NCBI RefSeq assembly: GCF_030384885.1
Contig: NZ_CP128613.1
Reading direction: 5' to 3' (one strand)
DNA length: 64,000 nucleotides
Source of the DNA: Escherichia coli
GTDB taxonomy: Bacteria > Pseudomonadota > Gammaproteobacteria > Enterobacterales > Enterobacteriaceae
Shown here: positions 36,368 through 50,666 of the stretch, one piece after another
How positions within the stretch are numbered: position 1 is the stretch's first letter
Layout: the number at the start of each line of letters is the position of its first letter
Program-made: the position numbers and the translations under genes
Notes under the pieces: model-generated
Databases searched by the model: none
The model's input: only the letters and a program-made list of their open reading frames with translations
What the model was told of the DNA's origin: nothing

Positions 36368-38610
<2,243 letters not shown>

Positions 38611-38623
38611 TTCCGGTCTCCTG

Positions 38624-39379
38624 TCAGAACTTATAACCACGATGCAGCGCCACAACCCCTGCCGTCAGGTTGTAATAGTCGACACTTTCGAATCCAGCAT
38701 CCTGCATCATAGCTTTCAGGGTGTCCTGATCGGGATGCATGCGGATAGATTCAGCAAGATAACGGTAGCTGTCAGCGTCGTTCGCGACCAGTGAGCCAAT
38801 ACGCGGCAGCACATGGAAGGAGTAAGCGTCATAGGCCTTACTTAACGGCTCGATAATCGGCTTCGAGAACTCAAGCACCAGCAGTCGGCCGCCAGGTTTC
38901 AGAACGCGATACATTGAACGCAGAGCTTTATCTTTGTCAGTGACGTTACGCAGACCAAACGAAATGGTGATGCAATCAAAGGTGTTATCCGGGAACGGCA
39001 GCGCCTCAGCGTTCGCCTGAACATACTCAACGTTGCCAATCACACCAATATTACGCAGCTTCTCGCGGCCCATTTTGAGCATGGATTCATTGATATCAGC
39101 AAGGACCACTTTGCCAGTTTCACCCACCAGGCGGGAGAATTTCGCTGTCAGGTCGCCAGTACCGCCTGCCAGATCCAGCACGGTCTGCCCGCGGCGTACG
39201 CCACTGCAATCAATCGTGAAGCGTTTCCACAAACGATGTATGCCAAAAGACATCAAATCATTCATGACATCGTATTTCGATGCCACGGAATGGAAAACGT
39301 GGGCGACCATATCCGCTTTTTGTTCCTTCGCGACGGTCTGAAAACCAAAGTGCGTCGTTTCTTGTGACTTATCCACCAT
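38624..39379 (-). CDS. ubiE: ubiquinone/menaquinone C-methyltransferase
   Basis: 251-aa ORF with SAM-binding motif ([11 protein letters not shown]). Confidence 0.96.
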
Positions 39380-39473
39380 CTCAATGCCTGCTCATCAAAA
39401 AATTGTTCCAGAAGTGTAACAGATTGGGCGTCGATGCCCTAGATTTCTACCCGGCTTAACTACCCCCAATGGG

Positions 39474-40901
39474 CTAGCGCGACTGCTGATTATATTCATC
39501 ATCGCGTTGATAAGCTTCATCATTCGGCTGCTCCGGTACCGACCGCAGTCGATACTCTTCATCCTGGCTCACCGCTTGTTCAGCCAAATCCGGATTAATC
39601 TCGCGTTTAATTTCTACTCCTAAACCGCGAAACGCTTCTGCCTGCGCCAGCACATTTCCGCGACCTGAAGAGAGTTTTTTCATTGCCTGGCGATAGTTGT
39701 CCTGTGCTTTGTCCAGACTTTGACCAATCGCGGACATATCATCGACAAACAAGCGCATTTTGTCGTACAACTTGCTGGCGCGATCGGCTATTTTCTGGGC
39801 GTTACGACTTTGATGCTCATAGCGCCAGAGGTTGGCGATAGTGCGCAGCGCCACCAGCAGCGTGGTCGGGCTAACCAGCATGATATTGTTTTTCAACGCT
39901 TCGGTGATCAGCTCCGGCTGGCGGTCAAGCGCCAGTAAAAAAGCGGGTTCAACGGGAATAAACATCAGCACGTAATCCAGGGTTCGCAGCCCCGGCAGCT
40001 GTTGATAATCTTTGCGTCCCAGCAAACGGATATGGTTACGCACCGACGCGATATGTTCCTGTAGCGCGCTTTCGCGGGTGTAGTCGTCTTCTGCGTTGAA
40101 ATAGCGTTCATAGGCGACCAGTGTCATTTTTGCGTCGATCACCACATCTTTGCCCTGCGGCAACCGCACGATGACATCCGGCTGCATCCGCGAGCGGGCG
40201 TCATTTTCGATGCTGACCTGGGTTTCATATTCATACCCTTCACGCAGACCGGAAGCCTCCAGCACACGCGTCAATACTACCTCGCCCCAGTTGCCCTGGG
40301 TTTTATTGTCGCCTTTCAGCGCACGCGTCAGGTTGATCGCTTCCTGGGCCATTTGCGCGTTGAGCTGCTGGAGATTGCGTATTTCGTGAGTCAGGGTATG
40401 GCGTTCTTGTGCTTCTTTACCGAAACTGTCCTGAACCTGACGACGAAAACCGTCCAGTTGTTCACGTAGTGGCGACAACAGGCTGTTCAGACTCTGACGG
40501 TTTTGCTCATCAACCCGGCGATTGCTGTGCTCGAAAATACGGTTGGCGAGGTTTTCAAACTGCTCACTGAGGCGCTGTTCGCTGTTGATCATTTGGCGAA
40601 TTTTATCGTCAGCATGTTGCTGTACGGCCTCCATTCGCGTGGTGACTTCACGCAGATCCGCCTCCAGCGAGGTGTTAATGCTTTGCAGACTGCGCACTTC
40701 ATTATTGAGTAACTCGCACTCAGCACGCCAATGTTCGCTTTGGGTAATTTGTTGTTTTGCCGCACTTAACTCCGCGATCATCTCTTCACGTTCAGCGAAT
40801 TGCTCGGCTTTTTGCTGCGCATGCTGATAACTGGCAATCAGCCAGCCAATCGCCACGCTCACCAACGCAATAACTGCGTAAACCATGATTGAGATATCCA
40901 C
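39474..40901 (-). CDS. rmuC: DNA recombination protein RmuC
   Basis: RmuC family with N-terminal TM helix and long coiled-coil; start set at GTG (VDISIMVYAV...) giving about 475 aa, with an ATG alternative 5 codons downstream. Confidence 0.9.
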   Translation of the reverse strand: MDISIMVYAVIALVSVAIGWLIASYQHAQQKAEQFAEREEMIAELSAAKQQITQSEHWRAECELLNNEVRSLQSINTSLEADLREVTTRMEAVQQHADDKIRQMINSEQRLSEQFENLANRIFEHSNRRVDEQNRQSLNSLLSPLREQLDGFRRQVQDSFGKEAQERHTLTHEIRNLQQLNAQMAQEAINLTRALKGDNKTQGNWGEVVLTRVLEASGLREGYEYETQVSIENDARSRMQPDVIVRLPQGKDVVIDAKMTLVAYERYFNAEDDYTRESALQEHIASVRNHIRLLGRKDYQQLPGLRTLDYVLMFIPVEPAFLLALDRQPELITEALKNNIMLVSPTTLLVALRTIANLWRYEHQSRNAQKIADRASKLYDKMRLFVDDMSAIGQSLDKAQDNYRQAMKKLSSGRGNVLAQAEAFRGLGVEIKREINPDLAEQAVSQDEEYRLRSVPEQPNDEAYQRDDEYNQQSR

Positions 40902-41019
40902 AACGCCTCCAGCCTCATTACTTACCCGCACAAAATAGAATTGTGCTGTACAAACGTCCAGTTTGAAAGAAGTTTCCTGCGAGGCGCTACGCAAAACGAT
41001 CCTTAATTTTTATTATTTT

Positions 41020-41055
41020 ATCCCACAATATGAGACGTAGTTTATATTGTGGGAT
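41020..41055. promoter_or_regulatory. perfect inverted repeat, candidate operator upstream of the IclR-family gene
   Basis: ATCCCACAATAT (41020-41031), 12-bp spacer, ATATTGTGGGAT (41044-41055); about 60 bp upstream of the regulator start in the rmuC-divergent intergenic region. Confidence 0.4.
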
Positions 41056-41116
41056 ATATCACCTTTTCCCCACGTCATTATGTGGAACACTTCAGCAATA
41101 TCATCAGGAGAAACGT

Positions 41117-41884
41117 ATGGCAGATACCTCTTCAACCACCGCTGGCGCACAAACGTTATTACGCGGGCTGGCGGTTCTTAATGCTGTTTATAACGGCTGC
41201 CATGACCTGAAAAGTATCGGCGAGTTCACCGGCACGACCCGGAGCACAACCCATCGTTTAGTCACCGTTCTGGTGGAACAACGCTACCTGCGCCACGTCC
41301 CAACGCAGGGCTACCAACTGGGCGCCAAACTGATCGAATTCGGTGCCAGAGCGCTGGAAAGCACCTCGCTGTACGAAATTGCGCTGCCCGTTTTGCAGCG
41401 TCTGGCCCGTTACACCCTGGACACCGTGCATCTGGGGATCGTTGAAGGCGACGAAGTGCTGTATCTGGAGAAGATCAACAGTCAGCGTGGGCTGGAAATG
41501 CGCTCACGCCCAGGCCATCGCATGCCACTGGCAATCACCGGCATCGGCAAGGCATTGATCCTCAACCGAACAGAAGAAGAGTGGCGCACGCTGTTTAAGA
41601 CCTGTGGTGATGAAACAAAACTGGGCACATTTATTCAGAACATGCGTCGTTATGCCGCCAGTGGTTTTGCTTTTGATCTGGAAGAGAACGAGCCGACTAT
41701 CCGTTGCGTTGCAGCGCCGGTTTACAACGCCCGGGATGAAATTGTGGCGGCTATTTCTGTCGCCAGTACCACTACGTATATGTCACTGGCGCGTCTGGAA
41801 GAACTGGCACCTTACGTCAAATCCTGTGCAGAAGAGATATCCGCTGAACTGGGCTGGGGTAAGCACGTCCGCAAAAATAAATAA
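41117..41884 (+). CDS. IclR-family transcriptional regulator
   Basis: 255-aa ORF from MADTSS with SD AGGAGA; N-terminal wHTH (LRGLAVLNAV...IGEFTGTTRSTTHRLVTVLVEQRYL) and C-terminal IclR effector domain pattern. Confidence 0.85.
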   Translation: MADTSSTTAGAQTLLRGLAVLNAVYNGCHDLKSIGEFTGTTRSTTHRLVTVLVEQRYLRHVPTQGYQLGAKLIEFGARALESTSLYEIALPVLQRLARYTLDTVHLGIVEGDEVLYLEKINSQRGLEMRSRPGHRMPLAITGIGKALILNRTEEEWRTLFKTCGDETKLGTFIQNMRRYAASGFAFDLEENEPTIRCVAAPVYNARDEIVAAISVASTTTYMSLARLEELAPYVKSCAEEISAELGWGKHVRKNK

Positions 41885-41907
41885 ACCATGACTAAAGGAA
41901 ACGGCTA

Positions 41908-42912
41908 ATGTCGGGAAACACCTCATTTATTGCCCTGGACTGGGGAACGTCATCGCTTCGGGCATGGCGTTTTGGCGACTCACCAAATCCACAAGAAAAA
42001 CGTGAATTCCCGTGGGGGATCATGAAATTACCCTCCCAGGCAGCAACACGTGAGGACGCTTTCCACGATACGTTTTTACGTGTCTGCGGCGACTGGCTGG
42101 CACAATCCCCATGCCCGATTCTGGCTTGCGGCATGATCGGCAGTGCGCAAGGGTGGCAACCCGCAGCTTATTTACCTTGCCCGGTCACTCTCGAGGGTCT
42201 GGCAAAGCAGTTGACGCCTGTTATCTACCAGCAGCAGACAATGCTGCACATCATTCCCGGCGTGATTAAAGAAGGTGAAATGCCCGAAGTGATGCGTGGC
42301 GAAGAGACACAAATCTTCGGTGCTATCTCGATGGAACCGGCCCTGCAAAACGCGCTCCGCCAGGGTATGCCTGTGCTGATTGGCTTACCTGGCACACATG
42401 CGAAATGGGCGGTAGTTGAAAACAACACCATTACCGATTTTCGAACCTTTATGACAGGCGAGTTATTTGATGTTTTATCCCGCCATTCGATTCTCGGTGC
42501 CACCATGCGTTCGGGAGATGAACCGCACTGGGATGCCTTCGCCCACGGGCTGACAGCGGCACAAGAGCATCATCAGACCGGATTATTATCGACGCTGTTT
42601 TCGACCCGTTCGCGCCTGCTGACCAGTAATCTTACGCCGTCCTCACAGGGGGATTACCTTTCAGGATTACTGATAGGCCATGAATTATGCGGTCTGGCAT
42701 CCAGTTTGCTACGTGATTTACCCGCCACAACACCGATCGCCTTAATCGGTAGCGCCACTCTGAACAGCCGCTATTCACAAGCATTCAGCCACGTTTTTCC
42801 CGACAGACAGCTACACGCCATTCCTAATGCCACTGAACAGGGGTTATGGCGAATCGCCCACGCTGCCGGGCTACTCTCCACCAACGCCAGGGAATGTACT
42901 CATGCCATTTAA
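41908..42912 (+). CDS. 2-dehydro-3-deoxygalactonokinase-like sugar-acid kinase (DgoK family)
   Basis: 334-aa ORF sharing the motifs I recall from DgoK: ALDWGTSSLRAW, MRGEETQ, PGTHAKW, FRTFMTGELF. Confidence 0.85.
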   Translation: MSGNTSFIALDWGTSSLRAWRFGDSPNPQEKREFPWGIMKLPSQAATREDAFHDTFLRVCGDWLAQSPCPILACGMIGSAQGWQPAAYLPCPVTLEGLAKQLTPVIYQQQTMLHIIPGVIKEGEMPEVMRGEETQIFGAISMEPALQNALRQGMPVLIGLPGTHAKWAVVENNTITDFRTFMTGELFDVLSRHSILGATMRSGDEPHWDAFAHGLTAAQEHHQTGLLSTLFSTRSRLLTSNLTPSSQGDYLSGLLIGHELCGLASSLLRDLPATTPIALIGSATLNSRYSQAFSHVFPDRQLHAIPNATEQGLWRIAHAAGLLSTNARECTHAI

Positions 42913-43531
42913 TACGCTTTTGCAAAAAACCGGGTTAGTCGCCATTTTACGCGGCGTGAAACCGGATGAGATTGTCGCCATCGGTGAAAAGCTGTATGCC
43001 GCTGGATTTCGCCTGATTGAGATTCCCATGAACTCGCCGGAGCCGTTGCAAAGTATCAGTTTACTGCGCGACGCCCTGCCTAAGGACTGCCTGGTCGGAG
43101 CCGGAACGGTGCTTTCGGTGGAGCAAGTCGTCGCGGTTAAAGAGGCTGGAGGCCAGATTATCGTAATGCCGCATTGCGATACTGCGGTGATCCGTCGTGC
43201 CCGTGCGCTGGGTATGTATTGTGCGCCTGGCGTCGCTACGCCCACCGAAGCTTTTGCTGCCATTGAACATGGCGCCAATGCCATCAAGCTGTTCCCGGCT
43301 GAACAAATTACGCCTGAAGTCACCAAAGCCTGGCGTGCGGTTATTCCACAATCCGTTCCGATGTTACCGGTTGGCGGTATCACTCCAGACACAATGGCGC
43401 GTTATCTGAGCCACGGCGCAAACGGCTTTGGCCTCGGTTCTGCGCTATATCGCCCCGGCATGACGCCAGAGCAAGTCTATGAAAATGCAGTACTGTTTAT
43501 GAACGCATGGAACAATTTAAATAGCAAATAA
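42902..43531 (+). CDS. 2-dehydro-3-deoxy-6-phosphogalactonate / KDPG-type aldolase (DgoA/Eda family)
   Basis: About 209-aa ORF from MPFNTLLQKTGLVAILRG; class I aldolase TIM-barrel pattern (EIPMNSP, GAGTV, KLFPA, GGIT). Start overlaps the kinase 3' end by 11 bp. Confidence 0.85.
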   Translation: MPFNTLLQKTGLVAILRGVKPDEIVAIGEKLYAAGFRLIEIPMNSPEPLQSISLLRDALPKDCLVGAGTVLSVEQVVAVKEAGGQIIVMPHCDTAVIRRARALGMYCAPGVATPTEAFAAIEHGANAIKLFPAEQITPEVTKAWRAVIPQSVPMLPVGGITPDTMARYLSHGANGFGLGSALYRPGMTPEQVYENAVLFMNAWNNLNSK

Positions 43532-43555
43532 CTGATAAATAAGGATATAAAAGCA

Positions 43556-44530
43556 ATGATAAAACATCTTACCTTACCGAAAAAAATGGCTGCAATGGTA
43601 CTTCTTGCCGGCGCTGCCCTCAGCACTGCGCCTGTGCAGGCGGCCTCCTGGCCAACCAAACAGATCGAGTTAGTCGTACCCTACGCGGCCGGAGGCGGTA
43701 CGGATCTGGTTGCCCGTGCCTTTGCTGATGCCGCCAAAAACCATTTGCCCGTCAGCATCGGGGTTATCAATAAACCTGGCGGTGGCGGCGCTATCGGCCT
43801 GAGTGAAATCGCCGCTGCCCGCCCTAACGGTTACAAAATGGGTTTAGGCACGGTTGAACTGACCACCCTTCCCAGTCTCGGAATGGTGCGTTTTAAAACC
43901 AGCGACTTTAAACCCATTGCCCGTCTGAATGCGGATCCTGCGGCTATCACCGTCCGTGCCGATGCACCGTGGAATAGCTATGAAGAATTTATGACTTACG
44001 CCAAAGCGAATCCCGGAAAAGTACGCATTGGTAACTCAGGCACCGGAGCAATCTGGCATCTGGCGGCAGCTGCACTGGAAGACAAAACGGGCGTGAAGTT
44101 TTCTCATGTCCCATATGACGGCGCAGCCCCTGCCATTACAGGCCTGTTAGGCGGGCATATTGAAGCGGTTTCCGTAAGCCCAGGTGAAGTTATCAATCAT
44201 GTGAAAGGCGGCAAGCTGAAGACACTGGTAGTGATGGCGGATGAACGTATGAAAACCATGCCTGACGTCCCGACGTTAAAAGAGAAAGGCGTTGATCTCT
44301 CCATCGGCACCTGGCGCGGCCTGATTGTGTCGCAAAAAACGCCGCAGGATGTGGTTGATGTTCTGGCTAAGGCCGCAAAAGAGACGGCTGAAGAGCCTGC
44401 ATTCCAGGATGCTCTGCAAAAGTTGAATCTCAACTATGCATGGCTTGATGGTGCCAGCTTCCAGACCCAAATCAACGAACAGGAAAAGTACTTTGACGAG
44501 TTACTAACTCGGCTGGGCTTGAAAAAATAA
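43556..44530 (+). CDS. tripartite tricarboxylate transporter substrate-binding protein (TctC/Bug family)
   Basis: 324-aa ORF with signal peptide (MIKHLTLPKKMAAMVLLAGAALSTAPVQA) and the TctC-type motifs ...VVPYAAGGGTD..., ...NKPGGGGAIG.... Confidence 0.85.
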   Translation: MIKHLTLPKKMAAMVLLAGAALSTAPVQAASWPTKQIELVVPYAAGGGTDLVARAFADAAKNHLPVSIGVINKPGGGGAIGLSEIAAARPNGYKMGLGTVELTTLPSLGMVRFKTSDFKPIARLNADPAAITVRADAPWNSYEEFMTYAKANPGKVRIGNSGTGAIWHLAAAALEDKTGVKFSHVPYDGAAPAITGLLGGHIEAVSVSPGEVINHVKGGKLKTLVVMADERMKTMPDVPTLKEKGVDLSIGTWRGLIVSQKTPQDVVDVLAKAAKETAEEPAFQDALQKLNLNYAWLDGASFQTQINEQEKYFDELLTRLGLKK

Positions 44531-44546
44531 TCCCGAGGTACGGTCG

Positions 44547-45053
44547 ATGAACACAAAACAGTCTGTTGCTCAACTCGCCGTACCGCACCGCAAGCGCTTT
44601 TCATCCACTGTGGTGGTGGCGCTGTTACTTTGTGTGGTTGCTGGCGCGGTGATAATTAATGCCGCTGATTTTCCAGCAACTGCCATTGAAACGGATCCCG
44701 GTGCAAGTGCCTTCCCTACTTTCTATGCCTGCGCTCTGATTGTGCTCGCTGTCTTACTGGTGATACGCGATCTTTTGCTGGCAAAACCAGTCCCTTGCGC
44801 CAACGCACAGGAAAAACCGGCATTCAGGAAAACGGCAACGGGAATTGCGGCAACCGCGTTTTATATTGTGGCGATGAGCTACTGCGGTTATCTCATTACT
44901 ACTCCTGTTTTCCTCATCGTCATTATGACGTTGATGGGCTACAGGCGATGGGTACTCACACCGGGTATTGCGCTGCTGTTAACGGCAATCCTCTGGTTGC
45001 TGTTTGTCGAAGCGTTACAGGTGCCATTGCCTGTCGGCACATTTTTCGAATAA
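44547..45053 (+). CDS. tripartite tricarboxylate transporter small membrane subunit (TctB-like)
   Basis: 168-aa hydrophobic protein with about 4 TM segments, positioned between tctC-like and tctA-like genes. Confidence 0.75.
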   Translation: MNTKQSVAQLAVPHRKRFSSTVVVALLLCVVAGAVIINAADFPATAIETDPGASAFPTFYACALIVLAVLLVIRDLLLAKPVPCANAQEKPAFRKTATGIAATAFYIVAMSYCGYLITTPVFLIVIMTLMGYRRWVLTPGIALLLTAILWLLFVEALQVPLPVGTFFE

Positions 45054-45065
45054 CAGGGGCCTGCA

Positions 45066-46556
45066 ATGTTTGAAAGTGAACTTTTAACTCAGGGGTTTTC
45101 GACATTACTCAGTAATCCTCAGGCGCTGCTGTTTGCCACGTTTGGAGTGATACTGGGTATTATGATTGGCGCTCTGCCTGGCCTGACAGCGACCATGGGT
45201 GTGGCGATTTTGCTGCCTTTCACCTACGGCATGGAGCCTGTTTCTGGCTTGTTGATGATTTGCGGTGTCTTTTTTGGTGGTGTGTATGGTGGTTCTATCA
45301 CCGCAATTTTGCTCAAAATTCCCGGTACGCCTGCCGCCGCTGCCACCGCCATTGACGGTTATGAGTTAACGAAGCAGGGAAAAGCCGGGCTGGCATTAAG
45401 TGCCGCCACGTTCTCTTCTTTTAGCGGTGGAACGCTCAGCATTATCGTATTGATGTTTCTCTCTCCGGTACTTGCCAGTTGGGCGTTGAAATTTAGTGCC
45501 TCGGAGTCCTTCGCCCTGGCAACCTTCGGACTAAGTATTATTGCCAGTATTTCCGGTGAGTCACTGATTAAAGGGCTGATTGCCGGGGTTGGCGGATTAC
45601 TGATCGCAACGATAGGCCTCGATCCGATGGGCGGTTTTCCACGCTTTACGGGCGGGTTTGTGGAACTGATGAATGTGCCATTTATCCCGGTGATGATTGG
45701 TCTGTTTGCTGCTTCAGAAGCGTTCCGTTCTATGGAACAAAATCAGCATATTCGTCAGAGCGCGAACGTGGCTATCGGCAGTCTGTTACTGCCCTGGCAA
45801 ACGCTACGCCGCATCGCATTAACCATTTTGCGCTCATCAGGATTAGGGGTTTTTATCGGCATGATCCCCGGTGCGGGGGCAGATATTGCAGCTTTTGTTG
45901 CCTATAACGAAACTCGTCGTTTCAGTAAGACGCCTGAAAACTTTGGTAAGGGTGAGATTAAGGCGGTGGCCTCCTGTGAGGCAGGCGCGAATGGCTGCAC
46001 CGGTGGCGCATTGTTACCTATGCTGACGTTGGGGATCCCAGGCGATGCGGTAACTGCCATCATGCTGGGCGCGTTAACGTTACAAGGGATGCAGCCAGGC
46101 CCACTGATGTTTACCGACCACGGCGATATGGTTTATACGCTGTTTGTCGGCATGATCTTTTGTTACTTCATGCTGCTAGTTCTTGGACTGCTCTCTTTGA
46201 AAGTCATCGGTAACGTGGTGAAGATCCCCGGCAATATTCTCACGCCGATGATCCTCGCACTTTGTGTGGTCGGGACTTATGCGTTGAACAATAGCCTGTT
46301 TGATGTTGGCATTATGCTGATTGCAGGCGTGGTGGGCTATTTCATGCAAAAAGGGGGGTATCCGGCATCACCCGTAGTGCTGGCATTGATTATGGGGCCA
46401 ATGGCGGAAAGTAATTTTCGCCGTGCGCTGTCGCTTTCTGGTGGGTCACTCGACTTTCTGTATACCCGACCGATAACCCTGGCATTGCTGACACTGGCAG
46501 CCTTTACGCTACTGACGCCAATAATACGCAAAATTATGCGCTTACGGCGTCAGTAA
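45066..46556 (+). CDS. tripartite tricarboxylate transporter large permease (TctA family)
   Basis: 496-aa polytopic membrane protein with Gly-rich TM segments typical of TctA (GALPGLTATMGVAILLPFTYGM, GGSITAILLKIPGTPAAAAT). Confidence 0.9.
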   Translation: MFESELLTQGFSTLLSNPQALLFATFGVILGIMIGALPGLTATMGVAILLPFTYGMEPVSGLLMICGVFFGGVYGGSITAILLKIPGTPAAAATAIDGYELTKQGKAGLALSAATFSSFSGGTLSIIVLMFLSPVLASWALKFSASESFALATFGLSIIASISGESLIKGLIAGVGGLLIATIGLDPMGGFPRFTGGFVELMNVPFIPVMIGLFAASEAFRSMEQNQHIRQSANVAIGSLLLPWQTLRRIALTILRSSGLGVFIGMIPGAGADIAAFVAYNETRRFSKTPENFGKGEIKAVASCEAGANGCTGGALLPMLTLGIPGDAVTAIMLGALTLQGMQPGPLMFTDHGDMVYTLFVGMIFCYFMLLVLGLLSLKVIGNVVKIPGNILTPMILALCVVGTYALNNSLFDVGIMLIAGVVGYFMQKGGYPASPVVLALIMGPMAESNFRRALSLSGGSLDFLYTRPITLALLTLAAFTLLTPIIRKIMRLRRQ

Positions 46557-46589
46557 TTGATATCGCTCCCCGACGTTGGGGAGTATGAG

Positions 46590-46740
46590 ACTGATGACAA
46601 ACGCTAAATTGCCTGATGCGCTGCGCTTATCAGGCCTACCACAGAAATGCAATATATTGAATTTGCATGCTTTTGTAGGCCGGGTAAGGCGATCACGCCG
46701 CATCCGGCATGAACAAAGCACACGTTAACAACAATCGGAA
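46590..46740. repeat. REP/BIME palindromic repeat cluster
   Basis: GCCTGATGCGCTGCGCTTATCAGGCCTAC, TGTAGGCCGGGTAAGGCGATCACGCCGCATCCGGC units between the transporter gene and udp. Confidence 0.55.
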
Positions 46741-46766
46741 TGCTCCCCTAAGCCAGGGAGCTTTTT

Positions 46767-47531
46767 TTATTTCAGCAGACGACGCGCCGCTTCCACCACG
46801 ATTTTCACCGCCTGGCTTTCGGTTTGTTTCATCGTCTCAGCATTCGGGATCTCTTGTTGGGTACGATTGACGATAACGCCCGCCACCATACCGGCACGAA
46901 GGCCCTGGCTTGCACACATGGTCAGCAGGGTTGCAGATTCCATTTCATAGTTCATTACGCCCATCGCCTGCCACTCTTCCATAGAACCTTTAAAGTGACG
47001 GACTACGCGACCAGAGTAAGTATCGTAACGTTCCTGACCCGGGTAGAAGGTATCAGAAGAAGCCGTCACACCAACGTGAGTGGTGGCACCAATTGACTTC
47101 GCCGCTTCAACCAGCGCGGTCGTACATTCGAAATCTGCGACAGCCGGGAACTCCAGCGGAGCGAAGTGCAGGCTCGCGCCATCCAGACGAACAGACGCCG
47201 TGGTCACCAGCACATCGCCGACATTGATATGCGGCTGGATAGCGCCCGTTGTACCGATACGCAGGAAGGTGCGAATGCCCAGCTGTGCCAGCTCTTCAAC
47301 CGCAATAGAGGTAGACGGGCCGCCGATACCGGTAGAGCAGACGATAACAGGTTTACCATCCAGCTCTGCACGCCAGGTGGTGAATTCGCGGTGAGATGCC
47401 AGCTTAACCGGCTTATCCATCAGCGCGGCGATCTTTTCCACACGATCCGGGTCGCCAGGGACGATGGCAAGCGTAGCCCCTTGTAAATCGTTTTTAGTGA
47501 GGCCGAGATGAAAAACATCAGACTTGGACAT
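46767..47531 (-). CDS. udp: uridine phosphorylase
   Basis: 253-aa ORF from [19 protein letters not shown]; PNP/UDP phosphorylase family. Confidence 0.96.
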
Positions 47532-47792
47532 ATACAACTCCTCTGTGAATCGGTTTAGTCAGAAGAAGCAAAAAGACACTTTACCGAAGGGTTTAACATT
47601 TTTTCGTGACACTCATCACCTTGATGCAAATGCGTTGCATAAATTTACCCAGCAAAAGTGATGCGAATCACATAAATCACTCTTCATTCTGCATGACTGC
47701 ATAAAAGATGAGCCGATTCAGGCAATGTGATTTGTTGCATGCTGACTATAGTTAACATTGCGCAACATTTTTATAAGGGTACGGAGAATACC

Positions 47793-48605
47793 ATGGCAAC
47801 AACACAACAATCTGGATTTGCACCTGCTGCATCACCTCTCGCTTCGACCATCGTTCAGACCCCGGATGACGCGATTGTAGCAGGCATCACCTCTATCCCT
47901 TCACAAGGGGATAACATGCCTGCTTACCATGCCAGACCAAAGCAGAGCGATGGCCTACTACCAGTGGTCATTGTAGTGCAGGAAATTTTTGGCGTGCATG
48001 AACATATCCGCGATATTTGTCGCCGTCTGGCGCTGGAGGGGTATCTGGCTATCGCACCTGAACTTTACTTCCGCGAAGGCGATCCGAATGATTTTGCCGA
48101 TATCCCTACGCTGCTTAGCGGTCTGGTAGCAAAAGTGCCTGACTCGCAGGTGCTGGCCGATCTCGATCATGTCGCCAGTTGGGCGTCACGCAACGGCGGC
48201 GATGTTCATCGCTTAATGATCACCGGATTTTGCTGGGGTGGACGTATCACCTGGCTATATGCTGCGCATAACCCGCAACTGAAAGCGGCGGTGGCATGGT
48301 ACGGCAAACTGACAGGCGATAAGTCGCTGAATTCACCGAAACAACCTGTTGATATCGCAACCGATCTTAACGCGCCGGTTCTCGGCTTATATGGTGGTCA
48401 GGATAACAGCATTCCGCAGGAGAGCGTTGAAACCATGCGCCAGGCGCTGCGGGCTGCTAATGCGAAAGCAGAGATTATCGTCTACCCGGATGCCGGGCAT
48501 GCATTCAACGCCGATTATCGCCCGAGCTATCATGCTGAGTCGGCGAAAGATGGCTGGCAGCGTATGCTGGAGTGGTTTAAGCGGTATGGTGGGAAACGGA
48601 ATTAG
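47793..48605 (+). CDS. ysgA: dienelactone hydrolase-family protein YsgA
   Basis: About 270-aa ORF from MATTQQSGF; alpha/beta hydrolase with nucleophile elbow GFCWGG. Confidence 0.9.
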   Translation: MATTQQSGFAPAASPLASTIVQTPDDAIVAGITSIPSQGDNMPAYHARPKQSDGLLPVVIVVQEIFGVHEHIRDICRRLALEGYLAIAPELYFREGDPNDFADIPTLLSGLVAKVPDSQVLADLDHVASWASRNGGDVHRLMITGFCWGGRITWLYAAHNPQLKAAVAWYGKLTGDKSLNSPKQPVDIATDLNAPVLGLYGGQDNSIPQESVETMRQALRAANAKAEIIVYPDAGHAFNADYRPSYHAESAKDGWQRMLEWFKRYGGKRN

Positions 48606-48996
48606 TTTCCTCTTATTCTATATTTGAGATGGTGAGTGAACGAATGCGTTTTGCTGCCATCTCTGTCCCCCAAAAAATAATCAGTATGAATTGATTGGAG
48701 AGCACGACTCCGCTATTTGACCTTAAGAAAGTCGGCAAGTCATAGTCATAAATGAGTCTCTTCACTGGCAGACACCTTAAAGATTTACCATCAACTCCCA
48801 TTCTCAAACAAACATTAATTATTATCAACACATTCACATTAATTATAAATTACCTCAGACCTTCCTGATAAAAAGATATTAAAGTGAAACATTTTGTTTT
48901 TCACATTTTAGTTCATCCCTTTTAGGCGTAAATAAAGGTAAAAAATAACAATACTATTTTTCTTTCACAAAAAAATTAACAAAAGGTTTTTCAAGG

Positions 48997-50145
48997 ATGA
49001 GTGATATTATCTACCTGACCATAACCGGAGAACAACACGGATGTATTTCCTCTCGTTGTGGAACGAGCACATCAATAGGTAATCGCTGGCAGATTGGTCA
49101 TGAAGATGAAATCTTCGCATTCTCGCTCTCTAATAGTATTACGAATACAGGAAAAGGGTCACATTTGCATGGCCTTAGTTTCTGTAAGTTGATTGACAAA
49201 AGCTCCCCGTTACTTATTAACGCTATTAACAATAACGAGCAGTTGTTCATGGAGTTTGACTTCTATCGGATCAATAGATTTGGTCGATGGGAGAAATATT
49301 ACAACATTCAACTCCGCGGCGCGCTCTTATCAGCAATCAATCACCTGTTTACGGAGAACAATCTGGATACAGAAACCATCACTGTCAGTTATGAATATAT
49401 ACTCTCCAGGCATCTGATTGCTAATACTGAATTTAGTTATTTGGCATTTCCCGATAACTACAATCGTCTGTTTATACCACGGCCAAAAACTAAAGATGAT
49501 AATGGCCTCAAAACACTCAATAGTAAAGCTGTTGGCAGACTGCTTGCTGCTGGCGGCATATACAATGGGAATATCGAAGGATTCAGGGAAACAGCAAACA
49601 AGTTGGGGGGAGATGCACCTGCTGGTTACGATCAAGTTATGGATAACAAAGGGTTACTCATCGCTGGTGCTTCAATAGTTGCTGGAGCAGTTCTGGGGAG
49701 AATGAGACTCCCTGATTTGGAATCACTTGAGCATTTCGGAGCCAGAGGAGCAGTATCAGGAAGACCATTTAATCCCGACCTTGCCGGTGGTCCAATAGAA
49801 AATCTGACGACAGATGGCGTAACAATCAACAGGGAAGGTATCGCTATTGTTGAAAAACACATAGCCAGATTTGGTCATGACCCTGTAAATGAAGTGATGA
49901 TCAATAGACTGAAAGACATTGAGAAAGGAAAAATCCCCCCAGAACAAGTAGATCTTAACTTCTATACTCATGAATGTCGGGAATATCAGCGTTACTGTAA
50001 TCTTGGTTGGGAAACAGGACAACCTGATGGTGACGCAGGCTATGCACTCTGGAATCATACGCATACTGCTACTCTAGAAGATTATAAACTTAAGGGAGAA
50101 CTTAATGACTTATACCACCAGGACGCACTTGACTATGATAACTGA
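48997..50145 (+). CDS. Hcp (T6SS tube protein, TssD) fused to a C-terminal extension; candidate evolved-Hcp toxin effector
   Basis: 382-aa ORF. The N-terminal ~160 aa follow the Hcp pattern (ITGEQHG...NRW..GHEDEIFAFS...KLIDKSSPLLINAI...EFDFYRIN) as I recall it; then a Gly-rich linker and a ~130-aa His/Cys-containing C-terminal region. Low GC and AT-rich upstream region. Confidence 0.8.
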   Translation: MSDIIYLTITGEQHGCISSRCGTSTSIGNRWQIGHEDEIFAFSLSNSITNTGKGSHLHGLSFCKLIDKSSPLLINAINNNEQLFMEFDFYRINRFGRWEKYYNIQLRGALLSAINHLFTENNLDTETITVSYEYILSRHLIANTEFSYLAFPDNYNRLFIPRPKTKDDNGLKTLNSKAVGRLLAAGGIYNGNIEGFRETANKLGGDAPAGYDQVMDNKGLLIAGASIVAGAVLGRMRLPDLESLEHFGARGAVSGRPFNPDLAGGPIENLTTDGVTINREGIAIVEKHIARFGHDPVNEVMINRLKDIEKGKIPPEQVDLNFYTHECREYQRYCNLGWETGQPDGDAGYALWNHTHTATLEDYKLKGELNDLYHQDALDYDN

Positions 50146-50380
50146 AACTGAAATTAACATACTGAAAGTTATGGCTGAGAAAGATATAAACTGGAACTGG
50201 ATGAATCTCGATCGCACACTATCTATAAGGCAAATTCCAGGATTCGGTAATGTTGTTAACATTGTTAACAAATTAGCTAACGAGGGTTTGGTTATTATTG
50301 AGGATAGCGGACATAAGTCTATGCCTCACTACCACGTTACTGATAAGGGATACAATCTCGTGAAAAGTGAGAATAAATAA
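50135..50380 (+). CDS. small protein downstream of the Hcp fusion; candidate immunity protein (alternative: small wHTH-like protein)
   Basis: 81-aa ORF (MITETEINILKVMAEKD...), or 91 aa from the upstream ATG at 50105. Its start overlaps the Hcp-fusion stop (ATGATAACTGA), the arrangement seen in toxin/immunity pairs. Confidence 0.5.
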   Translation: MITETEINILKVMAEKDINWNWMNLDRTLSIRQIPGFGNVVNIVNKLANEGLVIIEDSGHKSMPHYHVTDKGYNLVKSENK

Positions 50381-50527
50381 CGTAGCGTTGATTACTGAAC
50401 AAATCGCTCAGGATTATATTTTGCGAAAAAAATGATTCGGTTATTTCTGTGTCTGAACGGCCGCAGATAGCAAAATGGCTTCCGGTGATGGAAGCCATCA
50501 GATTATTGGCAAAGTGCGTGTTGTTCA

Positions 50528-50562
50528 TGCCGGATGCGGCGTGAACGCCTTATCTGGCCAAC
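50528..50562. repeat. REP element
   Basis: GCCGGATGCGGCGTGAACGCCTTATCTGGCC. Confidence 0.5.
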
Positions 50563-50666
50563 TAAATCTTGAAAATTCAATAAATTGAATAAATTATGTA
50601 GACTTGGTATCAGGCAGTTTTGCCTCTTTCATCGTACTGCAATTTACAGTGACTCGTTAATACTCA

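What the first reader, a model, noticed from the sequence alone, without database searches (positions are those of the whole stretch)
40902..46760. Six-gene sugar-acid catabolism and TTT transport cluster between rmuC and udp
Between rmuC and udp lies a same-strand, tightly spaced cluster: IclR-family regulator, DgoK-like kinase, DgoA/Eda-like aldolase, and TctC, TctB, TctA homologues. I recall K-12 gene numbering as contiguous across rmuC-udp, so this looks like an accessory or differentially retained locus. Pairing a tripartite tricarboxylate-type transporter with a 2-keto-3-deoxy-acid kinase/aldolase is not a pathway I know to be characterised in Escherichia. GC content appears similar to the core, suggesting an old acquisition or loss from K-12 rather than recent transfer.
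Basis: partly seen in the sequence, partly recalled or inferred. Interest (0 to 1): 0.75.

Follow-up and report, generated by a model that had tools for sequence, protein, structure and literature searches.

The report
Accessory galactonate-type sugar-acid uptake operon
Between rmuC and udp this E. coli carries an intact six-gene operon, absent from K-12 and present in about a quarter of complete E. coli genomes, that most likely imports D-galactonate (or its 2-keto-3-deoxy form) through a binding-protein-dependent TTT transporter and splits it into pyruvate and glyceraldehyde-3-phosphate; it is uncharacterised but made of well-known parts.

Summary
Window 41117-46556 (+) holds six intact, tightly spaced genes: an IclR regulator, a DGOK-family kinase, a DgoA-type aldolase, TctC, TctB and TctA. 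K-12 has only 140 bp between udp and rmuC. Among 5426 complete E. coli genomes, 1452 carry the cluster and 3969 have the empty site. The same six genes sit at the same site in E. whittamii, Buttiauxella, Pseudocitrobacter and two Klebsiella species. GC content and divergence match the flanks, and dN/dS is 0.02-0.29. This fits an old, differentially retained locus under purifying selection.

The IclR-kinase-aldolase trio is closer to the Burkholderiaceae De Ley-Doudoroff galactose module than to E. coli's own DgoK/DgoA. TctC relatives in Betaproteobacteria sit beside dgoK/dgoA, true DgoD or IlvD-type sugar-acid dehydratases.

Best reading: TTT-mediated uptake of D-galactonate, dehydrated by the core DgoD, or of 2-keto-3-deoxygalactonate directly. 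The kinase and aldolase then take it to pyruvate and glyceraldehyde-3-phosphate. A perfect 13-bp palindrome upstream is the candidate operator.

I found no E. coli study of it. A similar IclR+dgoK+TTT pairing was already predicted for D-galactonate in Salinivirga. It is a new member of a known kind, of moderate interest.

The parts
40902..41116 (.). rmuC-iclR divergent control region. The first ~95 bp next to rmuC are shared with K-12; the rest is specific to the cluster.
   Evidence: blastn against K-12 aligns window 40902-40996 at 89.6%. Sequences read.
41019..41056 (.). Perfect 13-bp inverted repeat TATCCCACAATAT-n12-ATATTGTGGGATA, 60 bp upstream of the iclR ATG. Candidate operator of the IclR regulator (inferred).
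   Evidence: the repeat finder. Conserved in ST131 (1 mismatch) and E. whittamii; Klebsiella has a different TCCCA...GGGA palindrome.
41117..41884 (+). IclR-family transcriptional regulator, 255 aa
   Evidence: NCBIfam hits to BhcR (141 bits) and KdgR (126 bits), below equivalog cut-offs. The Buttiauxella orthologue carries HTH_IclR and IclR_C. 54% identical to the IclR of the Burkholderia cepacia dgoK-dgoA cluster.
41908..42912 (+). DGOK-family kinase (predicted 2-dehydro-3-deoxygalactonokinase), 334 aa
   Evidence: Pfam PF05035 residues 11-316, E 1.6e-89. 34% identical to K-12 DgoK. Motifs DWGT11, RGEETQ130 and PGTHAKW161 are present. 46-49% identical to Burkholderiaceae DgoK.
42902..43531 (+). 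DgoA-type class I aldolase (predicted KDPGal aldolase), 209 aa; overlaps the kinase gene by 11 bp
   Evidence: NCBIfam NF006600, 323 bits against a cut-off of 207. 46% identical to K-12 DgoA. Best PDB match is 2V81. R17, E40, K129 and V157 align with DgoA R14, E37, K126 and V154.
43556..44530 (+). TctC/Bug-family periplasmic solute-binding protein, 324 aa, with an N-terminal signal-peptide-like sequence ending VQA|AS
   Evidence: Pfam PF03401, E 2.5e-55. Best PDB match is 4X9T (Polaromonas, ligand unknown), E 5.6e-100. N-terminus and the PYAAGGGTD motif seen.
44547..45053 (+). TctB small membrane subunit, 168 aa, 4 hydrophobic segments
   Evidence: Pfam PF07331, E 1.5e-20. Hydropathy scan.
45066..46556 (+). 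TctA large permease subunit, 496 aa, about 12 hydrophobic segments
   Evidence: Pfam PF01970, full length, E 1.3e-151. Hydropathy scan.
46585..46742 (.). BIME-type element: two inverted REP sequences (about 46611-46639 and 46676-46709). Not part of the pathway, and absent from the ST131 copy of the locus.
   Evidence: This stretch alone matches a median of ~5 places per E. coli genome at 85-88%. Sequence read. Sub-threshold Rfam hits to REP-derived naRNA4 and ES036. The tctA-udp gap is 34 bp in ST131 and 210 bp here.
46742..46761 (+). Intrinsic-terminator-like hairpin GCTCCC...GGGAGC followed by T7; likely end of the operon transcript
   Evidence: scan_promoters_terminators.

Best explanation
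This is an accessory, IclR-controlled operon for scavenging and catabolising a galacto-configured hexonic acid, most likely D-galactonate.

Proposed steps:
1. The exported TctC binds the sugar acid in the periplasm.
2. TctC hands it to the TctBA secondary transporter.
3. In the cytoplasm, D-galactonate is dehydrated to 2-keto-3-deoxygalactonate (KDGal). The enzyme is encoded elsewhere: in this strain, the core DgoD.
4. The operon's DGOK kinase phosphorylates KDGal to KDPGal.
5. The DgoA-type Schiff-base aldolase cleaves KDPGal to pyruvate and glyceraldehyde-3-phosphate.
6. The IclR protein probably represses the operon through the 13-bp palindrome upstream of its own gene and is released by the substrate or by KDGal.

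Shown here: gene content, family membership, catalytic residues, purifying selection, population distribution and synteny. Inferred: the ligand, the use of DgoD in trans, the operator, and the direction of regulation.
For: - Family assignments of all six proteins.
- The aldolase scores above the curated KDPGal-aldolase cut-off. It keeps the Schiff-base Lys, the catalytic Glu, and the Val that in DgoA replaces the Thr of KDPG aldolases. The role of these residues is from my memory of the 2V81 work.
- IclR, kinase and aldolase are 54%, 49% and 61% identical to the IclR-DgoK-DgoA module of Burkholderia cepacia. In Burkholderia and Pararobbsia that module is followed by SDR dehydrogenase, SGL lactonase, aldose epimerase and a sugar ABC transporter. 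This is a De Ley-Doudoroff galactose cluster that also lacks an in-cluster dehydratase.
- Betaproteobacterial TctC relatives (52-58% identity) sit next to dgoK and dgoA in L010, L013, L016, L020 and L038. They sit next to a DgoD 74-75% identical to E. coli DgoD in L024 and L040, and next to IlvD-family sugar-acid dehydratases in L020 and L038.
- The host strain carries a complete dgoRKADT operon about 155 kb away, so DgoD is available.
- dN/dS is 0.02-0.29 against ST131 and 0.02-0.44 against E. whittamii.
- A perfect palindrome lies upstream and a terminator downstream.
- Leyn et al. 2017 independently predicted IclR+dgoK+TTT to mean D-galactonate uptake (PMC5507952).
Against: - No ligand-binding, transport or growth data exist.
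- None of the nine six-gene clusters examined contains a dehydratase, including those at non-syntenic sites in Brenneria, 'K. oxytoca' and a soil MAG. A self-sufficient operon would point to KDGal rather than D-galactonate as the imported molecule.
- In the NJ tree, the TctCs of six-gene clusters form their own clade with 100% bootstrap. Their link to the DgoD-adjacent TctCs is sister-group, not strict orthology.
- If D-galactonate is imported, it would also induce the core dgoK and dgoA via DgoR. That would make the accessory kinase and aldolase redundant. The kinase does show the highest dN/dS among the enzymes, 0.13-0.25.
- TTT binding proteins characterised so far mostly bind di- or tricarboxylates, aromatic acids or amino acids.
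Confidence: 0.6

Rival explanations
1. The operon is a self-contained KDGal route. TctCBA imports 2-keto-3-deoxy-D-galactonate released by other microbes, for example from galactonate or anhydrogalactose breakdown. The kinase and aldolase finish the job with no dehydratase needed. This would be the galacto counterpart of E. coli's kdgR-kdgT-kdgK-eda system, whose regulator KdgR is also an IclR protein.
For: A dehydratase is consistently absent from all nine six-gene clusters, including copies at unrelated chromosomal sites. The related orphan-TctC loci in Variovorax and Comamonadaceae do carry dehydratases next to TctC. The regulator's second-best NCBIfam match is KdgR. This route would explain why a second kinase and aldolase are kept alongside the core dgo operon.
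Against: The orthologous Burkholderiaceae IclR-DgoK-DgoA module also lacks an in-cluster dehydratase, yet it clearly serves a galactose-to-galactonate pathway. The soil-MAG six-gene cluster has an SDR and an SGL-lactonase-like gene nearby, which implies galactonate is an intermediate there. No environmental source of free KDGal in the gut is established.
Confidence: 0.25
2. The transporter's ligand is a different carboxylate: another hexonate such as D-talonate or D-gluconate, KDG, or an aldarate. The kinase and aldolase would then act on a related 2-keto-3-deoxy acid rather than KDGal.
For: The kinase matches no NCBIfam equivalog and is only 34% identical to the characterised DgoK. TctC relatives also occur beside enolase-superfamily dehydratases of unknown specificity (L029, L035) and beside paired SDRs. 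The closest solved structure, 4X9T, has no assigned ligand.
Against: The aldolase passes the curated KDPGal-aldolase threshold. It scores far lower on KDPG-aldolase models: 135 bits against a cut-off of 156, and lower still on the others. It also keeps the DgoA-type Val. The only characterised activity of the DGOK family is KDGal kinase. Aldarate pathways do not use a DGOK kinase (established pathway knowledge).
Confidence: 0.1
3. The cluster is a silent or decaying relic with no current function in E. coli.
For: It has been lost from about 73% of sampled genomes. Its kinase and aldolase are functionally duplicated by the core dgo operon.
Against: All six ORFs are intact here and in the sampled RefSeq records, with no pseudogene flags. 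dN/dS is well below 1 for every gene across B2, the window lineage and E. whittamii. Catalytic residues are intact.
Confidence: 0.05

Closest known systems
E. coli dgoRKADT D-galactonate operon (DgoT, DgoD, DgoK, DgoA; repressor DgoR)
   Same: It contains a DGOK-family kinase and a KDPGal-type aldolase whose genes overlap, as dgoK and dgoA do. The predicted end products are the same: pyruvate and glyceraldehyde-3-phosphate.
   Different: The kinase is only 34% and the aldolase 46% identical. The regulator is IclR-type, not GntR-type. The transporter is a tripartite TTT system, not the MFS DgoT. There is no dehydratase. The cluster is accessory (27% of genomes), not core.
Burkholderiaceae De Ley-Doudoroff galactose cluster (IclR-DgoK-DgoA with galactose dehydrogenase, lactonase, mutarotase and a sugar ABC transporter)
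   Same: The gene order IclR-DgoK-DgoA is identical, and identities are the highest found outside Enterobacterales (54%, 49% and 61%). There is also no dehydratase within the cluster.
   Different: The sugar-oxidising front end and the ABC sugar importer are replaced by a TTT acid importer. The entry substrate must therefore already be an acid.
Predicted IclR ('GalR') + dgoK + TTT D-galactonate locus of Salinivirga fredricksonii HL-109 (Leyn et al. 2017, PMC5507952)
   Same: It has the same combination of IclR regulator, DgoK and a TTT transporter. D-galactonate uptake was predicted from genomic context.
   Different: The host is an alphaproteobacterium. The prediction is untested. Sequence relatedness to the E. 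coli genes was not examined here.
Salmonella TctCBA citrate transporter and Bordetella Bug proteins (TTT family prototypes)
   Same: The three-component architecture TctC/TctB/TctA and the Pfam families are the same.
   Different: The regulator differs: IclR here, against the TctDE two-component system in Salmonella (from memory). The predicted ligand is a sugar monocarboxylate rather than a tricarboxylate or amino acid.
kdgR-kdgT-kdgK-eda system for 2-keto-3-deoxygluconate
   Same: The logic matches the rival KDGal-import reading: an IclR-family regulator, import of a 2-keto-3-deoxy acid, a kinase, and a class I aldolase.
   Different: The kinase family differs (PfkB KdgK against DGOK). The transporter family differs. 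The gluco rather than galacto stereochemistry applies. Those genes are scattered rather than in one operon.

Membership tests
Tripartite tricarboxylate transporter (TTT) family | Periplasmic TctC/Bug-type binding protein | tested here: met
   PF03401 residues 52-321, full model, E 2.5e-55. PDB homologues include BugD, Bug27, TphC and AdpC. The N-terminus is signal-peptide-like.
Tripartite tricarboxylate transporter (TTT) family | Small 4-TM TctB and large ~12-TM TctA membrane subunits encoded next to TctC | tested here: met
   PF07331, E 1.5e-20, and PF01970, E 1.3e-151. Hydropathy gives 4 and about 12 hydrophobic segments. The gene order is tctC-tctB-tctA with 16- and 12-bp gaps.
Tripartite tricarboxylate transporter (TTT) family | Binding-protein-dependent secondary transport of a carboxylate | not testable with these tools
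   Requires uptake assays.
DGOK (2-dehydro-3-deoxygalactonokinase) family | Full-length DGOK domain with conserved ATP and substrate motifs | tested here: met
   PF05035 model positions 1-281 of 281, E 1.6e-89. DWGT, RGEETQ and PGTHAKW align with K-12 DgoK. PDB matches 3R1X and 3T69.
DGOK (2-dehydro-3-deoxygalactonokinase) family | KDGal kinase activity | not testable with these tools
   No NCBIfam equivalog model matched. An enzyme assay is needed.
KDPGal aldolase (DgoA) subfamily of class I KDPG/KHG aldolases | Score above the curated subfamily threshold | tested here: met
   NF006600, 322.9 bits against a cut-off of 207. All KDPG-aldolase models score below their cut-offs.
KDPGal aldolase (DgoA) subfamily of class I KDPG/KHG aldolases | Schiff-base Lys, catalytic Glu, and Val at the stereochemistry-linked position (DgoA K126, E37, V154; roles recalled from the 2V81 study) | tested here: met
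   K129, E40 and V157 align with them.
IclR family of transcriptional regulators | N-terminal HTH_IclR and C-terminal IclR effector domain | tested here: met
   End-to-end NCBIfam alignments to BhcR, KdgR, PcaR and IclR. The 72%-identical Buttiauxella orthologue carries PF09339 and PF01614. It is not an equivalog of any named regulator, since all scores fall below cut-off.
E. coli dgo operon (duplicate copy) | GntR-type DgoR, DgoD dehydratase and MFS DgoT accompanying DgoK and DgoA | tested here: not met
   The interval contains no GntR regulator, dehydratase or MFS gene. The true dgoRKADT operon lies about 155 kb away in the same genome.
Recently acquired genomic island | Atypical composition, mobility genes, or a tRNA or integrase at the borders | tested here: not met
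   GC content is 0.50-0.56, like the flanks. No integrase or transposase ORFs are present. Divergence matches the flanks. The site is syntenic in four other genera.

The most novel reading that the evidence does not exclude
This would be the first functional TTT transporter of E. coli. It would be a high-affinity scavenging route for D-galactonate or KDGal, retained in the B2, F and related lineages that include most extraintestinal pathogens and lost from the A/B1/E-type lineages. Such a route would give carriers an edge when sugar acids are scarce in the gut or urinary tract. Its binding protein would also give the first ligand for a large uncharacterised TctC clade, including PDB 4X9T, and would extend TTT substrates to hexonic or 2-keto-3-deoxy sugar acids.
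Probability: 0.2. Interest if true: 0.55.

Novelty: new member of a known kind. Interest (0 to 1): 0.35.

Why it matters
Sugar acids, D-galactonate among them, are recognised gut nutrients for E. coli. Published work on E. coli D-galactonate use deals only with the dgo operon (PMC12288454). A second, binding-protein-dependent entry route present in about 27% of complete genomes could explain strain differences in sugar-acid use and in colonisation. Carriers include ST131, ABU 83972, APEC O2:K1:H7 and ST648. The route should also be added to strain-specific metabolic models. It offers an easy genetic system for assigning a ligand to an unstudied branch of the TTT family. Even so, every component belongs to a well-understood family and the predicted chemistry is textbook.

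Tried and rejected
- **Literature.** Ten full-text searches combined TTT/TctC/TctA, galactonate, the kinase names, CFT073, uropathogenic, phylogroup and rmuC/udp. None found a study of this locus in E. coli. There was one incidental tctA row in an EPEC RNA-seq table. The library covers open-access papers only.
- **Anti-phage defence.** No PADLOC hits for any of the six proteins. Rejected.
- **Structured RNA or riboswitch in the interval.** Only sub-threshold REP-related Rfam hits. Rejected.
- **Simple deletion scar.** The 45-bp K-12-specific spacer, with its terminator hairpin, has no counterpart in the window. The empty site is therefore not a plain excision product, and the direction of the event cannot be read from the junction alone.
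- **Recent duplication of dgoK and dgoA.** Rejected on 34% and 46% identity.
- **Technical failures.** Greedy ORF calling in high-GC loci gave spurious antisense ORFs. I replaced it with GC3 filtering and precomputed gene calls.
- **Not attempted.** I did not predict the TctC structure, because the closest solved homologue is ligand-free and a model would not identify the ligand.
- **Not possible.** Phylogroup assignment of all 1452 carriers could not be done. Statements about B2 and F rest on my knowledge of named strains.

Full report
**What is there**

The interval between rmuC (39474-40901, minus strand) and udp (46767-47531, minus strand) contains six plus-strand ORFs. They match the RefSeq annotation of the 100%-identical record, E. 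coli 2013C-4282. The genes are:
- an IclR-family regulator, 41117-41884
- a DGOK-family kinase, 41908-42912
- a DgoA-type aldolase, 42902-43531
- TctC, 43556-44530
- TctB, 44547-45053
- TctA, 45066-46556

Gaps between the genes are 23, -11, 24, 16 and 12 bp, and each gene has a purine-rich stretch before its ATG.

Family assignments are unambiguous:
- Kinase: Pfam DGOK over the full model, E 1.6e-89.
- Aldolase: NCBIfam NF006600 at 323 bits against a cut-off of 207. All KDPG-aldolase models fall below their cut-offs.
- TctC, TctB and TctA: the three Pfam models match at E 2.5e-55, 1.5e-20 and 1.3e-151.
- Regulator: it aligns end to end with BhcR, KdgR, PcaR and IclR but reaches none of their equivalog thresholds.

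Upstream of the regulator gene lies a perfect 13-bp inverted repeat with a 12-nt spacer, at 41019-41056. It is conserved in ST131 and E. whittamii. Downstream of tctA come a short hairpin, a BIME made of two inverted REPs (about 46585-46742), and a terminator-like hairpin with a T7 run at 46742-46761.

The rest of the window is ordinary E. coli backbone, running from glnALG through an rrn operon, fadBA and ubi/tat to metE and recQ.

**Accessory status and age**

K-12 MG1655 has udp and rmuC 140 bp apart. Among 5426 complete E. coli genomes, 1452 carry at least 80% of the cluster. A further 3969 have the K-12-type empty junction. Together these account for 5421 genomes, so the locus is a clean two-state polymorphism.

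Carriers include ST131, ABU 83972, APEC O2:K1:H7 and ST648. From my own knowledge these are B2 and F strains. Only about 18 genomes carry a copy at least 98.3% identical to the window. All other copies are 96.0% identical or less.

Four observations argue for an old locus:
- GC content is 0.50-0.56, like the flanks, whereas the nearby Hcp islet is 0.37-0.44.
- Nucleotide identity to ST131 is 95-98% inside the cluster and 93-97% in the flanking ubiB, ubiE, rmuC, udp and ysgA.
- Synonymous divergence inside the cluster (dS 0.06-0.22) is no higher than in the flanks (0.12-0.35).
- The same six genes lie between rmuC and udp in Escherichia whittamii, Klebsiella spallanzanii, K. indica, Buttiauxella warmboldiae and Pseudocitrobacter cyperus.

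The cluster also occurs at unrelated sites in Brenneria goodwinii, a 'K. oxytoca' assembly and a soil proteobacterial MAG.

The simplest reading is an old enterobacterial locus that was lost on the branch leading to K-12-like lineages. Recombinational spread through the conserved flanks cannot be excluded. The 45-bp K-12-specific spacer has no counterpart in the window, so the junction itself does not settle the direction of the event.

All six genes are under purifying selection. dN/dS is 0.02-0.29 against ST131 and 0.02-0.44 against E. whittamii. The kinase (0.13-0.25) and tctB are the least constrained.

**What it most likely does**

The kinase is 34% and the aldolase 46% identical to K-12 DgoK and DgoA. 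They are therefore deep paralogues, not a recent duplication. The host strain still has a complete dgoRKADT operon about 155 kb away.

The aldolase retains residues equivalent to DgoA R14, E37, K126 (the Schiff-base lysine) and V154. I recall the roles of these residues from the 2V81 structural study. The kinase keeps the DWGT, RGEETQ and PGTHAKW motifs.

Outside Enterobacterales, the closest relatives of the kinase are the ~340-aa DgoK proteins of Burkholderia, Paraburkholderia and Pararobbsia, at 46-49% identity. In those genomes the gene order is also IclR-DgoK-DgoA. It is followed by SDR dehydrogenase, SGL lactonase, aldose epimerase and, in B. cepacia, a sugar ABC transporter. That is a De Ley-Doudoroff galactose cluster. 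The window's IclR is 54% and its aldolase 61% identical to the B. cepacia proteins.

The enterobacterial operon is therefore that same three-gene back-end, with the sugar-oxidising front-end and ABC importer swapped for a TTT acid importer. This implies that the entry substrate is already an acid downstream of galactose oxidation.

The TctC evidence agrees:
- TctC's best solved homologue is Polaromonas 4X9T, which has no assigned ligand.
- A species-level genome scan found 52-58%-identical orphan TctCs in Variovorax, Comamonadaceae and other Burkholderiales.
- These sit beside dgoK and dgoA in L010, L013, L016, L020 and L038.
- They sit beside a DgoD 74-75% identical to E. coli DgoD in L024, whose order is dgoA-dgoD-dgoK-tctC, and in L040.
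- They sit beside IlvD-family sugar-acid dehydratases and DgoR-like GntR regulators.

In an NJ tree, the TctCs of the six-gene clusters form a clade with 100% bootstrap. The betaproteobacterial TctCs are its sister group.

**Mechanism I commit to, and its main rival**

The steps I propose are:
1. TctC captures D-galactonate in the periplasm.
2. TctBA imports it.
3. The core DgoD dehydrates it to KDGal.
4. The operon's kinase and aldolase convert KDGal via KDPGal to pyruvate and glyceraldehyde-3-phosphate.
5. The IclR protein controls the operon through the palindrome.

The main rival is direct import of KDGal. Its support is that no dehydratase appears in any of the nine six-gene clusters, even at non-syntenic sites, and that it resembles the kdgR/kdgT/kdgK/eda logic. 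It is weakened because the orthologous Burkholderiaceae module also lacks an in-cluster dehydratase while plainly serving a galactonate-forming pathway.

I put D-galactonate at roughly 0.6 and KDGal-only at 0.25. Another acid gets 0.1 and a silent relic 0.05. The ligand, the regulation and the involvement of DgoD are all inferences. None could be tested here.

**Comparison with what is known**

- The cluster meets the sequence definitions of the TTT, DGOK, DgoA and IclR families.
- It is not a copy of the dgo operon. It has no GntR regulator, no dehydratase and no MFS transporter.
- It is not a composition-atypical island.
- No study of it in E. coli was found in ten searches. A 2025 paper on natural variation in D-galactonate use considers only the dgo operon.
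- The 2018 TRAP/TTT review lists no sugar monocarboxylate TTT with experimental support. It lists 4X9T as ligand-unknown.
- Leyn et al. 2017 had already predicted, from genome context, an IclR+dgoK+TTT locus for D-galactonate uptake in Salinivirga.

**Verdict**

The locus is a real, conserved accessory operon that is plausibly relevant to ecology. It is built from textbook parts, is already named correctly by automated annotation, and has a function that can be predicted by homology. I rate it a new member of a known kind, with interest about 0.35.

Noticed in passing
window 48606-50665 (ORFs 48997-50145 and about 50134-50379): A second variable spot lies between ysgA and metE. It is an AT-rich islet (GC 0.37-0.44) encoding a 382-aa protein with an N-terminal T6SS Hcp domain (residues 6-135) and a ~245-aa C-terminal extension with no Pfam match. 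A small overlapping ORF follows it, which might be an immunity gene. RefSeq flags the Hcp gene as frameshifted. K-12 has ysgA and metE 39 bp apart, and ST131 carries different genes here (cysteine hydrolase, DUF2877, fdrA).
   Followed up: partly
window 46585-46742: A BIME (two inverted REP sequences) sits between tctA and udp in this lineage. It is absent from the ST131 copy, where the gap is 34 bp. It matches about 5 places per E. coli genome.
   Followed up: partly
window 36368-48605: The backbone genes around the cluster are unusually diverged from both K-12 and ST131. Examples are rmuC at 95.4% and 93.0% nt, and ubiE at 95.1% and 94.6%; rmuC dS against ST131 is 0.35. Only about 18 of 5426 genomes share the window's cluster variant at 98.3% or more. 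The strain may belong to a deep or recombinant lineage. Its phylogroup was not determined.
   Followed up: no
window 46767-46772 (3' end of udp): In cluster-bearing E. coli, udp is one codon longer than in K-12 (765 against 762 nt, ending ...LLK* against ...LL*). The presence/absence boundary therefore abuts or includes the udp stop codon.
   Followed up: partly
L048 5728-7907 and 13888-14652: In one assembly labelled Klebsiella oxytoca, the six-gene cluster lies at a different site. It is accompanied by a divergently transcribed Fe-alcohol-dehydrogenase gene plus a second DGOK-family kinase, and by a second IclR gene downstream. This may be an extended pathway variant.
   Followed up: no
L009 10001-14202: A betaproteobacterial member of the six-gene TctC clade has tctCBA but no kinase or aldolase within 6 kb. 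Instead, an amidohydrolase-family metallohydrolase (NF009060, above its cut-off) follows tctA. The main model does not explain this.
   Followed up: no
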